Origin: Escherichia coli
Lineage (GTDB): Bacteria > Pseudomonadota > Gammaproteobacteria > Enterobacterales > Enterobacteriaceae
DNA: 64,000 bases
Reading direction: 5' to 3' (one strand)
NCBI RefSeq assembly: GCF_024298765.1
Contig: NZ_CP101210.1
In this document: piece by piece, positions 62,475 to 63,578 of the stretch
Layout: every line of letters starts with the position of its first letter
Numbering within the stretch: position 1 is the stretch's first letter
Translations under genes and position numbers: made by a program
Notes under the pieces: generated by a model
The model's input: only the letters and a program-made list of their open reading frames with translations
The model's database searches: none
Told to the model about the DNA's origin: nothing

Positions 62475-63578
62475 ATGATGTTCGATGTTGACGATACTGC
62501 ACCCGATACTCCCGCCCCCCGTGAACTCAGTCAGGATGTGCAGGCGCTGATCAACAATGGTCTGGATTTTCTGGATAAAGCCCGTGAAGAGTTGGAGGCC
62601 TCGAAGCCGAAGTTCTCCGTCGTCAGTTTCTGGACTGCGGTCGAGATTTTACTGAAAGTTCCGCTGGCGCACGAACACTGGTCGTTGGTCTGCAGCCCGA
62701 AAAAGCCAATAAAAAAGCAGGCTTACCTAGCCGGTGATTTTCAGTCGGTGACCTACGAAGAAACCCGTGAAAGGCTTAAGGACGTACTTGAAAGACCCCT
62801 AGACAGAGAAACGGACAGTGCTTTTGATAAGGTCAGAAAGCACCGCAACCGCGTAGTTCATTTCTACCACCCCACTTTCACCGAGGCTGAACAACGTCAA
62901 ATACTCAAAGAACAAGCTGACGCCTGGTTTGCCCTGAACCGGTTATTAAGGGATGAATGGAAAGTTATCTTCGGTGTCAAACATAATTGGAAGCTGGCTT
63001 TCGGTGAAACTCGTCTGATTAGGGGAAACAAATTTTATGCCGAGGTGCGGTTTAAACAGGTTAAGCCTGAACTCGAGCAGCTCTCTGAAAAGAATATTCA
63101 AATCGGTAACTGCAATGAGTGCCATCAGCATGCGACGGTAACAGGGACTGAAACGACCGGTAATGAAAACCGTAAGCTTGAAGTTACGCGGTGTAAGGTT
63201 TGCACCAGTGCTGTAAGGCAAATTACCCTAGTTTGTCCAGACTGCGAAATACCTCAATTGCTACCTGAGGGAGATAGTGATTTTGAATGCGAACACTGCG
63301 ACTACACTTCGGATAGGTATAAACTGCTGGATGAGGAGTTGTTCCACAGTGTGGATGAACAGCTACTCTCCGTATTTCCTGCTGGATGTACCAATTGCAT
63401 GACTCCTGAAAGCGTATGTAAATTTGGAGACGGCTATCTTTGCACTCAGTGTTTCATCTATTACACCGAGCTTCATGTATGTGGTTGTTGCGGTCACCTG
63501 AGCGATAGCGTTCCTGAACTGAGCCATATCCGAGGATGTGAATTTTGTGATGGTGACCAACGTTATTTTGATGACTGA
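62475..63578 (+). CDS. hypothetical protein with HEPN-like R-x4-H motif and C-terminal multi-CxxC zinc-ribbon region
   Basis: 367-aa ORF with KHRNRVVHF (R-x4-H) in an alpha-helical N-terminal half, followed by at least 8 CxxC/CxxH pairs (CNECHQH, CKVC, CPDC, CEHC, CTNC, CTQC, CGCCGH, CEFC). Confidence 0.5.
   Translation: MMFDVDDTAPDTPAPRELSQDVQALINNGLDFLDKAREELEASKPKFSVVSFWTAVEILLKVPLAHEHWSLVCSPKKPIKKQAYLAGDFQSVTYEETRERLKDVLERPLDRETDSAFDKVRKHRNRVVHFYHPTFTEAEQRQILKEQADAWFALNRLLRDEWKVIFGVKHNWKLAFGETRLIRGNKFYAEVRFKQVKPELEQLSEKNIQIGNCNECHQHATVTGTETTGNENRKLEVTRCKVCTSAVRQITLVCPDCEIPQLLPEGDSDFECEHCDYTSDRYKLLDEELFHSVDEQLLSVFPAGCTNCMTPESVCKFGDGYLCTQCFIYYTELHVCGCCGHLSDSVPELSHIRGCEFCDGDQRYFDD

What the first reader, a model, noticed from the sequence alone, without database searches (positions are those of the whole stretch)
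62475..63578. HEPN-motif plus multi-zinc-ribbon protein, candidate abortive-infection or RNA-targeting effector
The N-terminal half carries KHRNRVVHF, fitting the R-x4-6-H HEPN RNase motif. The C-terminal 150 aa contain at least eight CxxC/CxxH pairs, suggesting several zinc ribbons for nucleic-acid or protein sensing. The gene is in an island, flanked by hairpin repeats and a recombinase, near CP4-type prophage genes, which is a typical context for defence genes.
Basis: inference. Interest (0 to 1): 0.6.

Follow-up and report, generated by a model that had tools for sequence, protein, structure and literature searches.

The report
HEC-08 anti-phage HEPN zinc-ribbon gene

Summary
The ORF is real: 62475-63578, + strand, with RefSeq starting at the second ATG, 62478. 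It has an R-x4-H motif (RNRVVH) and eight CxxC pairs.

From the second Met, the protein is 100% identical to WP_001313577.1. That is the E. coli ECOR52 protein that Payne et al. (bioRxiv 2024, 10.1101/2024.01.29.577857) cloned as 'HEC-08'. They showed that it reduces phage plaquing and that H128A abolishes defence. A full-length PADLOC model exists for it (E 1e-173).

My independent checks agree:
- R123, N124, H128 and all 16 cysteines are invariant in homologues down to 25% identity.
- The family is large, with 417 clusters at E<=1e-30, nearly all full length.
- No partner gene is conserved.

RNase activity, the trigger and abortive infection remain untested. The zinc-ribbon half is the variable half and is strongly acidic (net charge -18). 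I therefore infer that it senses a phage protein, as the zinc finger of RAZR (PD-T7-4) does.

Verdict: observation confirmed, interpretation supported, already known.

One side observation is less ordinary. The gene sits in a 4.24-kb insert with a 202-aa tyrosine recombinase, bounded by a 23-nt hairpin repeat. The same repeat also delimits other defence cassettes.

The parts
62478..63578 (+). HEC-08 coding sequence: 366 aa plus stop. An alternative in-frame ATG at 62475 gives 367 aa.
   Evidence: ORF list. RefSeq CDS C_RS01355 = WP_001313577.1 in the 100%-identical CFT073 record. String-identical to the HEC-08 protein in Table S2 of Payne et al.. PADLOC HEC-08 E 1.1e-173.
62467..62471 (+). Shine-Dalgarno-like AGGAG, 6 nt before the ATG at 62478 and 3 nt before the ATG at 62475.
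   Evidence: Read directly from the sequence. The spacing favours the RefSeq start.
62529..63092 (+). N-terminal HEPN domain (DUF3644 / EC042_2821 type), residues ~18-205, all alpha-helical.
62844..62861 (+). Predicted catalytic motif R123-N-R-V-V-H128 (R-x4-H).
   Evidence: Motif scan. R123, N124 and H128 are invariant in 44 sequences down to 25% identity. H128A negated defence in the preprint.
63093..63575 (+). C-terminal module of four predicted Cys4 zinc ribbons: C212/215+C239/242, C253/256+C271/274, C304/307+C322/325, C335/338+C354/357. It is acidic and variable.
   Evidence: Eight CxxC. 16 invariant Cys. Beta-strand-rich in the model. Only weak matches to S27e, uS14 and TFIIB-type ribbons, E 0.007-0.6. 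43% mean identity and net charge -18.
63617..63648 (+). Hairpin 40 nt after the stop codon. It contains the 23-nt 'A' repeat (63622-63644) that forms the right boundary of the insert.
   Evidence: 12-bp perfect arms. DNA fold -14.5 kcal/mol, z -5.4. Homology with islands lacking the insert resumes at 63621.
59354..59376 (+). Left copy of the 23-nt 'A' repeat (TCCGCCTTTGGCACAGAGCGGAC), the left boundary of the 4.24-kb insert.
   Evidence: Pattern search: 3 matches in the window against 0.01 expected. The empty site in EC958 has a single copy.
59395..59417 (-). 'B' variant of the repeat (TCCGCTCCTCGCTCTCAGCGGAC), 18 nt inside the left boundary.
   Evidence: Fuzzy scan. The same A-18 nt-B arrangement is seen in L016 and L019.
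60409..60431 (-). A second 'B' repeat, between the 269-aa ORF and the ETEC_3214 gene.
61477..62085 (-). 202-aa tyrosine recombinase ('site-specific integrase', WP_001305361.1). It is the conserved core of the insert.
   Evidence: Xer-like catalytic domain, best match XerA 1e-15. The R..K..HxxR..H..Y residues are visible in the translation. About 927 E. coli genomes carry it at ~90% identity or more, with differing cargo on both sides.
62077..62115 (.). Perfect 15-bp-arm hairpin overlapping the recombinase start codon. It marks where homology between elements with different cargo ends.
   Evidence: z -7.2. Matches to other elements stop at about window 62135-62140.
60512..61249 (-). ETEC_3214-family gene, the left-hand cargo of the insert.
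   Evidence: NCBIfam NF043066, E 2.1e-53. No PADLOC hit.
59585..60394 (+). 269-aa hypothetical ORF lying between two B repeats.
   Evidence: No PADLOC or NCBIfam hit.
63800..64000 (+). Start of the YeeP-like GTPase gene of the CP4-44-type island backbone. It runs off the window.
   Evidence: Sequence. The CFT073 annotation marks it as frameshifted. It is intact in other strains.

Best explanation
The gene encodes HEC-08, a stand-alone, single-protein anti-phage defence system carried by mobile elements.

Shown:
- The protein is sequence-identical to the HEC-08 representative that protects E. coli from phages.
- Protection needs His128 of the R-x4-H motif.
- The N-terminal half has a HEPN fold.

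Inferred mechanism:
- In uninfected cells the protein is inactive.
- During infection, the variable and strongly acidic module of four zinc ribbons recognises a phage-made component, most likely a protein.
- This brings two HEPN domains into the dimeric or oligomeric arrangement that HEPN RNases need to form their composite R/H active site.
- The activated enzyme then cuts RNA (host and/or phage mRNA, tRNA or rRNA), stopping translation and phage production, probably at the cost of the infected cell.

Here the gene is cargo of a 4.24-kb insert with its own small tyrosine recombinase, inside the CFT073/Nissle-type aspV island.
For: Identity:
- 366/366 residues and 399/399 nt of the printed DNA match Table S2 of Payne et al..
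- CFT073 annotates the same accession, WP_001313577.1.
- PADLOC HEC-08 scores E 1.1e-173 over the full length.

Function:
- HEC-08 is among the seven systems that reduced plaquing. [quoted passage not shown]
- H128A negated defence.

HEPN:
- DUF3644 profile E 2.8e-71.
- R123, N124 and H128 invariant.

Single gene:
- Homologues at 73%, 49% and 48% identity stand alone at a prophage edge, in an ICE defence array and among ICE transfer genes.
- No conserved upstream ORF exists.

Sensor inference:
- The zinc-ribbon half is 43% identical to homologues (36% without Cys) against 65% for the HEPN half. Column entropy is 2.02 against 1.19. Net charge is -18, family mean -16.
- In RAZR/PD-T7-4, a zinc-finger domain fused to a HEPN-like domain is the most variable part, sets phage specificity and binds phage ring proteins. 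Oligomerisation then activates non-specific ssRNA cleavage and abortive infection (PMC13017515).

Context:
- The slot next to the same recombinase holds PD-T7-1 or a SIR2/deaminase set in other strains.
Against: - No RNase assay, toxicity test or abortive-infection test for HEC-08 appears in the text I could read. The preprint calls it a 'putative RNase'.
- The trigger is unknown.
- The analogy with RAZR is by logic only. The domain order is reversed, the HEPN family differs (DUF3644 against DUF4145), and there are four ribbons rather than one. No PD-T7-4 profile matched.
- I could not inspect model coordinates, so the four Cys4 sites are inferred from spacing and invariance, not from geometry.
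Confidence: 0.8

Rival explanations
1. HEC-08 is a direct, non-abortive RNA-targeting nuclease. The zinc ribbons bind a specific RNA, such as a phage transcript or a tRNA, and guide the HEPN domain to it, without any phage-protein trigger or cell death.
For: Cys4 zinc ribbons are classic nucleic-acid binders. The weak sequence matches are to ribosomal S27e, uS14 and TFIIB ribbons. JGI names some homologues 'Zn ribbon nucleic-acid-binding protein'. Several HEPN defence nucleases cut tRNA (PrrC/RloC, listed).
Against: The ribbon module has a net charge of -18, with a family range of -21 to -5. That is unfavourable for binding RNA. Its sequence apart from Cys is the fastest-evolving part of the protein, which is typical of a surface in an arms race with proteins. 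The matches to known ribbons are not significant.
Confidence: 0.15
2. Its main natural role is against plasmids or other mobile elements, or in stabilising its own element as an addiction module. On this view the phage defence seen on a plasmid with a supplementary promoter is a side effect.
For: Ishtar proteins, which have an N-terminal HEPN (DUF4145 or DUF3644) and a C-terminal beta-rich domain, clear plasmid RP4 (bioRxiv 10.64898/2026.07.06.735840). HEC-08 is always on mobile elements. Homologues also sit inside R-M/Hma operons.
Against: Phage defence was measured for this exact protein and depends on H128. HEC-08 is not in the Ishtar homologue table. It aligns with an E. coli Ishtar homologue only over the RN...H helix, E 0.048. 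No antitoxin partner is conserved.
Confidence: 0.07
3. It is a restriction-modification component ('hsdR'), as NCBI names many homologues.
For: NCBI and UniRef label dozens of homologues 'hsdR'. There is a weak match of residues 94-161 to the N-terminal region of the PRK11448 type I endonuclease model, E 0.027. The EC042_2821 HEPN family occurs in R-M operons.
Against: The protein is 366 aa with no helicase, ATPase or PD-(D/E)xK domain by NCBIfam, Pfam or fold search. No hsdM or hsdS gene lies nearby here. It defends on its own in a strain deleted for R-M. The name looks like an annotation carried over from neighbouring genes.
Confidence: 0.02

Closest known systems
HEC-08 (Hma-embedded candidate 08; Payne, Hughes, Fineran & Jackson, bioRxiv 2024; PADLOC-DB v2)
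   Same: Identical protein sequence (WP_001313577.1). Same architecture of an N-terminal DUF3644 HEPN plus C-terminal zinc ribbons. The same H128 residue was tested.
   Different: Nothing at the protein level. The family was found embedded in Hma systems, whereas this copy sits in a recombinase-bearing insert of the aspV island with no Hma or R-M genes nearby.
EC042_2821 / DUF3644 family of HEPN domains (Anantharaman et al. 2013, PMC3710099)
   Same: HEPN domain with R-x4-6-H. Described as fused to zinc-ribbon domains and associated with R-M operons.
   Different: That description also includes fusions to wHTH and restriction-endonuclease domains, which are absent here. It was a computational prediction with no functional test.
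RAZR / PD-T7-4 (Zhang et al., Nature 2026, PMC13017515)
   Same: A single-protein E. coli defence combining a Cys4 zinc-finger module with a HEPN-type RNase. The zinc module is the variable, specificity-determining sensor. A His in the HEPN motif is essential.
   Different: In RAZR the zinc finger is N-terminal and single, and the HEPN is C-terminal and of the DUF4145 type. No profile match to HEC-08 was found. For RAZR the triggers (phage portal and Gp77 rings), the 24-mer assembly, ssRNA cleavage and abortive infection are all demonstrated. None of these is known for HEC-08.
HEPN toxins of HEPN-MNT toxin-antitoxin pairs (e.g. SO_3166, PDB 5YEP)
   Different: Those are ~130-aa toxins neutralised by an adjacent MNT nucleotidyltransferase. 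HEC-08 has no such neighbour and carries a 160-aa zinc-ribbon extension.
Ishtar anti-plasmid proteins (bioRxiv 10.64898/2026.07.06.735840)
   Same: Monogenic, with an N-terminal HEPN (one of them typed DUF3644) and a C-terminal beta-rich domain of unknown function, found in cassette-like variable regions.
   Different: The one E. coli homologue sequence I read from their table is 212 aa and lacks the CxxC pairs. Similarity is limited to the catalytic helix. HEC-08 is not among their listed homologues. The reported activity is plasmid loss rather than phage defence.

Membership tests
HEC-08 (PADLOC) | Full-length match to the HEC-08 profile | tested here: met
   E 1.1e-173, residues 13-366 against profile positions 7-357 of 358.
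HEC-08 (PADLOC) | Same protein as the experimentally tested representative | tested here: met
   366/366 identical to the Table S2 sequence. The accession WP_001313577.1 is shared with the CFT073 annotation.
HEC-08 (PADLOC) | Single-gene system with no obligatory partner | tested here: met
   Neighbours differ completely among homologues. No conserved upstream ORF.
HEC-08 (PADLOC) | Anti-phage activity | not testable with these tools
   Reported for the identical protein in the preprint. Not re-testable here.
HEPN superfamily | Conserved R-x4-6-H motif | tested here: met
   R123-x4-H128. Invariant, together with N124, in 44 sequences down to 25% identity.
HEPN superfamily | All-alpha HEPN helical-bundle fold | tested here: met
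HEPN superfamily | Match to a curated Pfam HEPN-clan model | tested here: not met
   Pfam-A gave no hit at E<=0.001; HepT-like_2 scored E 0.33. The PADLOC copy of DUF3644 does match, E 2.8e-71.
HEPN superfamily | Metal-independent RNase activity | not testable with these tools
   I found no biochemical data for HEC-08 in the papers read.
Cys4 zinc ribbon | Two CxxC knuckles per unit with conserved cysteines | tested here: met
   Four units. All 16 Cys are invariant.
Cys4 zinc ribbon | Significant similarity to a known zinc-ribbon family, or zinc-site geometry in a structure | tested here: inconclusive
   Only weak hits: Pfam DUF7836 E 0.018 and DZR_2 E 2.1; PDB S27e, uS14 and TFIIB E 0.007-0.6.
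RAZR / PD-T7-4 | N-terminal zinc finger followed by a C-terminal DUF4145 HEPN; match to the PD-T7-4 profile | tested here: not met
   The domain order is reversed. No PD-T7-4 model appears among the PADLOC hits at E<=1.
HEPN-MNT toxin-antitoxin | Adjacent MNT nucleotidyltransferase antitoxin gene | tested here: not met
   None in the window or in the CFT073 annotation, and none next to homologues.
Ishtar | Membership of the published homologue set, or similarity beyond the catalytic helix | tested here: not met
   Accession absent from their Table S3. BLASTP gives E 0.048 over 24 residues only.
Type I R-M HsdR (name given to homologues by NCBI) | SF2 helicase/ATPase and nuclease domains; hsdM/hsdS partners | tested here: not met
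   No such domains. No such neighbours.

The most novel reading that the evidence does not exclude
The gene itself is known, but its vehicle may not be. The 4.24-kb insert and its relatives could be an undescribed cassette system.

Its proposed components are:
- a ~200-aa tyrosine recombinase;
- a 23-nt inverted-repeat site, GTCCGCTY-TGGCACA-RAGCGGAC, with a 'B' variant placed 18 nt away in inverted orientation.

Together these would insert, stack and exchange defence genes upstream of the conserved backbone of CP4-44-type islands and related ICEs across Enterobacterales. The cargo seen includes HEC-08, PD-T7-1, a SIR2/deaminase set, retron I-C and a PD-T4-6-like kinase. The logic would resemble an integron but with different sites and a different enzyme.

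Evidence in favour:
- An empty site with one copy of the repeat and a filled site with two, where the left arm of each copy matches its origin.
- Tandem cassettes each ending in the repeat.
- The same recombinase with six different cargo sets.

The evidence does not exclude that the repeat is simply a REP/BIME-like palindrome used as a recombination hot spot, or a divergent integron attC. It is very abundant in a Hyphomicrobium genome, and most copies have no recombinase nearby.
Probability: 0.25. Interest if true: 0.55.

Novelty: already known. Interest (0 to 1): 0.2.

Why it matters
For annotation: RefSeq still calls this gene 'hypothetical protein' in CFT073, Nissle 1917, ABU 83972 and ATCC 25922, and calls its homologues 'hsdR'. 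It can be renamed as a validated defence gene.

It is present in 333 of 5,426 complete E. coli genomes (6%). These include the probiotic Nissle 1917 and standard uropathogenic and reference strains, so it is relevant to phage-therapy host range and to engineering those strains.

Scientifically, the open questions are mechanistic: what activates HEC-08, what RNA it cuts, and what four acidic zinc ribbons are for. The RAZR precedent makes these directly testable.

The recombinase-and-hairpin vehicle, if real, would explain how single-gene defences move between islands, prophages and ICEs. It would also point to unannotated neighbours, such as the ETEC_3214-family gene, as defence candidates.

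Tried and rejected
- Pfam-A scan: nothing significant. The expected DUF3644 hit did not appear, so the HEPN call was checked by other routes.
- NCBIfam: only noise.
- PDB sequence search with the family profile: no solved relative.
- INPHARED phages, tblastn: no match. The PHROG 37794 hit therefore probably comes from prophage-derived entries.
- RAZR identity: considered because it is a 'zinc-finger RNase', and rejected on architecture and lack of a profile match.
- Ishtar identity: considered because of the DUF3644 domain and the similar count of C-terminal strands and helices, and rejected.
- Toxin-antitoxin reading: the upstream ORFs of 81 and 62 aa at 62196-62466 are not conserved in homologues.
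- Rfam on 59000-64000: no RNA family covers the hairpins.
- Literature string search for the repeat: no paper.
- Hairpin covariation at repeat position 3/20: the 3' partner varies freely (C-G 67, C-A 31, others). The repeat therefore looks more like a double-stranded protein-binding site with imperfect arms than a strictly conserved stem.
- Search for a gene consistently next to the repeat: only LysR regulators recur (23 of 120 loci), which by my own rough estimate, not a computed test, is about the background frequency. The 202-aa recombinase is near only 3 of 120 new loci.
- Integron attC reading: some copies have ..AAC and GTT.. at the base of the A-N18-B palindrome. However, the crossover inferred in E. 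coli lies in the A half and no IntI is present. This is left unresolved.

Full report
1. THE OBSERVATION

The ORF 62475-63578 (+) exists and encodes 367 aa. It begins with two ATG codons. RefSeq starts at the second (62478, 366 aa), which is better spaced from the AGGAG at 62467-62471.

KHRNRVVHF is there. R124-x4-H129 is the only R-x4-6-H match in the protein; this is R123/H128 in RefSeq numbering.

Residues 213-358 hold exactly eight CxxC motifs. Only 3 of 20,000 shuffles of the C-terminal 161 residues reach eight.

- Hairpins lie at 62077-62115 and 63617-63648.
- A tyrosine recombinase gene lies at 61477-62085 on the - strand.
- A YeeP-like GTPase gene starts at 63800. It opens the CP4-44-type gene set in the identical CFT073 record.

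2. WHAT IT IS

The window is E. coli DNA. The 1.6 kb around the gene is 100% identical to CFT073, Nissle 1917, ABU 83972, ATCC 25922 and others, where the gene is annotated 'hypothetical protein'. In CFT073 it is C_RS01355 = WP_001313577.1.

PADLOC-DB gives a full-length hit to 'HEC-08' (E 1.1e-173) and a hit to its DUF3644 profile (E 2.8e-71).

HEC-08 comes from Payne, Hughes, Fineran and Jackson (bioRxiv 10.1101/2024.01.29.577857). Their Table S2 lists the tested representative as WP_001313577.1 from E. coli ECOR52 and prints its sequence. The window's protein is identical over all 366 residues. The 399 nt of DNA they print match the window starting at 62478.

According to the preprint, each candidate was cloned with its native promoter region plus an inducible promoter. 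It was then expressed in E. coli MG1655 delta-RM and challenged with BASEL and classic coliphages. Seven of the nine systems, all except HEC-01 and HEC-09, reduced plaquing. [quoted passage not shown] DUF3644 was placed in the HEPN superfamily in 2013. [quoted passage not shown]

3. INDEPENDENT CHECKS

I aligned 36 homologues at 43-88% identity and predicted the structure from that alignment. The model has mean pLDDT 85.8 and pTM 0.72. It has helices from residues 19 to 204 and a strand-rich C-terminal part.

Structure searches gave these results:
- Foldseek against the PDB found nothing significant.

A profile search of 1.84 billion representative proteins finds 1,560 clusters at E<=0.001 and 417 at E<=1e-30. 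Almost all of the top 150 are 340-370 aa and cover both halves. One named member is from Leptospira.

In 44 sequences down to 25% identity, the invariant residues are E56, K60, W68, G86, R123, N124, H128 and all 16 cysteines of the eight CxxC pairs. The spacing of these cysteines gives four Cys4 units.

Other searches were weaker or negative:
- No relative has a solved structure. The only sequence similarities of the C-terminal half are weak matches to S27e, uS14 and TFIIB-type ribbons.
- Pfam-A and NCBIfam give nothing significant.
- Many homologues are named 'hsdR' by NCBI. The domain content does not support that name.

4. CONTEXT

Homologues stand alone in quite different mobile elements:
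- at the integrase end of a Klebsiella prophage;
- in an ICE array with a type I-C retron and a PD-T4-6-like kinase;
- between ICE transfer genes in Pectobacterium.

Upstream sequences are unrelated apart from about 60 nt before the start codon. The small upstream ORFs in the window are not conserved. HEC-08 is therefore a single-gene system without an antitoxin.

In E. coli, 333 of 5,426 complete genomes carry the gene.

In ST131 strains the TonB-dependent receptor gene is followed directly by the YeeP-like gene. Compared with them, the window has a 4.24-kb insert (59377-63620). The insert contains:
- a 269-aa ORF;
- an ETEC_3214-family gene;
- the 202-aa recombinase gene;
- HEC-08.

The insert is bounded by direct copies of a 23-nt inverted-repeat site: TCCGCCTTTGGCACAGAGCGGAC at 59354 and TCCGCTCCTGGCACAGAGCGGAC at 63622. 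The empty site has one copy. A variant 'B' copy lies 18 nt inside the left end, and another lies at 60409.

The recombinase module (about 61430-62140) occurs in about 927 genomes, but only 331 have HEC-08 beside it. Elsewhere it is flanked by other cargo:
- a dynamin-family protein plus a hypothetical protein on the left, with HEC-08 on the right;
- PD-T7-1;
- an Abi protein and a SIR2/ITPase/adenosine-deaminase set;
- a CBS-domain protein;
- a restriction endonuclease.

Extra cassettes, each ending in the repeat, are stacked before the island backbone. It also suggests how the gene moves.

Many are in Enterobacterales. It also occurs in many copies in a Hyphomicrobium genome and in other phyla, and most copies have no recombinase nearby. 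There it forms clusters of alternating palindromes, like REP/BIME elements. What the repeat is remains open.

5. HOW IT MOST LIKELY WORKS

Shown:
- Defence by this protein, and its dependence on H128 (preprint).

Established for the family: HEPN RNases form their active site from the R-x4-6-H motifs of two subunits. [quoted passage not shown]

Inferred: the four zinc ribbons are the sensor. Three observations support this:
- They are the fastest-evolving part of the protein. Identity to homologues is 43%, or 36% without Cys, against 65% for the HEPN half.
- They carry a net charge of -18, which makes direct RNA or DNA binding unlikely.
- In RAZR/PD-T7-4, the one mechanistically solved HEPN plus zinc-finger defence, the zinc finger is the variable, specificity-determining module that binds phage ring proteins. 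Assembly then switches on non-specific ssRNA cleavage, translation arrest and abortive infection (PMC13017515).

I put the identity and defence role at about 0.95 and the activation model at about 0.5.

Three rivals are listed in the report: an RNA-guided direct nuclease, an anti-plasmid or addiction role, and an R-M subunit. The last is essentially excluded by the domain content.

6. COMPARISON AND NOVELTY

- It is HEC-08. Membership was tested by profile, by identity and by single-gene context.
- It belongs to the HEPN superfamily. The motif and fold criteria are met, the Pfam model criterion is not, and activity is untestable here.
- It is not RAZR, because the domain order and the HEPN family differ and no profile matches.
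- It is not an Ishtar homologue.
- It is not a HEPN-MNT toxin, because there is no MNT neighbour.

The finding is therefore already known. Interest is low for the gene as such. The residual value lies in the unsolved mechanism and in the recombinase-and-hairpin vehicle noted in passing.

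Noticed in passing
window 59354-63644: The HEC-08 gene lies in a 4.24-kb insert that is absent from ST131 strains. The insert is bounded by direct copies of a 23-nt inverted-repeat site, TCCGCYYYTGGCACAGAGCGGAC. The empty site in EC958 (L002 7002-7024) has one copy. The left arm of each copy in the filled site matches its origin, as expected for site-specific integration.
   Followed up: partly
window 61430-62140 (recombinase module); L005, L016-L019: A 202-aa tyrosine recombinase with a complete catalytic set is conserved in about 927 of 5,426 E. coli genomes. It carries different cargo on both sides: HEC-08, PD-T7-1, a SIR2+ITPase+adenosine deaminase set, an Abi protein, a CBS-domain protein, a restriction endonuclease and a dynamin-like protein. 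It looks like the core of a small defence-carrying element or hot spot.
   Followed up: partly
L011 3758-13769; L005 8523 and 9886; L016 8626-9864: Several copies of the same 23-nt repeat, all in one orientation, separate single genes or small gene sets. The cargo includes a retron I-C RT-Toprim, a PD-T4-6-like kinase, a HEC-08 homologue and a HEPN_Toprim_N protein. The last copy is followed by the same backbone sequence (tgtcagatta...) as in E. coli. This is a cassette-array organisation without an integron integrase.
   Followed up: partly
L020-L139 (e.g. L050 1762-7342, L051 201-6182): The repeat has the extended consensus AAYG-TCCGCTTYTGGCACWWAGCRGAC. It occurs in many Enterobacterales and also in Hyphomicrobium (many copies, in clusters of alternating palindromes like BIMEs), Nitrosomonadales, Amphritea and an Acidobacteriia MAG. 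No Rfam family and no paper in the library holds this sequence. Its nature (recombinase site, REP-like element or divergent attC) is unexplained.
   Followed up: partly
window 62077-62115: A perfect hairpin with 15-bp arms and a 9-nt loop (DNA fold z -7.2) overlaps the TTG start of the recombinase gene. It coincides with the point where homology between elements with different right-hand cargo ends. It could be a terminator, an insulator or a regulatory site.
   Followed up: no
window 60512-61249 (-) and 59585-60394 (+): An ETEC_3214-family gene and a 269-aa hypothetical ORF share the insert with HEC-08 and occupy slots that hold defence genes in other strains. Neither matches any PADLOC model, so they are unannotated candidates. 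The 269-aa ORF lies between two 'B' repeats.
   Followed up: partly
window 62415-62477; L007, L010, L011 just upstream of position 8001: About 60 nt immediately upstream of the HEC-08 start codon (ttacact...aaggag) are recognisably similar in homologues whose proteins are 73% and 49% identical, while everything further upstream is unrelated. This may be a conserved leader or promoter-proximal element.
   Followed up: no
homologues P0002-P0120: NCBI and UniRef name dozens of HEC-08 homologues 'hsdR', although they are ~366-aa proteins with no helicase or nuclease domains. This is probably an annotation error propagated from their frequent position inside type I R-M/Hma operons.
   Followed up: partly
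window 62478-63575: The current Pfam-A library gives no significant hit to this protein, and DUF3644 is not reported. The DUF3644 profile kept in PADLOC-DB scores E 2.8e-71. A Pfam-only annotation pipeline would miss the HEPN domain.
   Followed up: no
window 56937-59102 (-) and upstream: A TonB-dependent receptor gene, followed in CFT073 by an ABC-transporter operon (substrate-binding protein, FecCD permease, ATPase), lies immediately left of the insert. This is an ordinary iron-uptake cargo of the island.
   Followed up: no
window 63800-64000 (+): The YeeP-like GTPase gene that starts here is annotated as frameshifted in CFT073, as is the dynamin-family gene after it. Both are intact in other strains, so the island backbone is decaying in this lineage while HEC-08 stays intact.
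   Followed up: no
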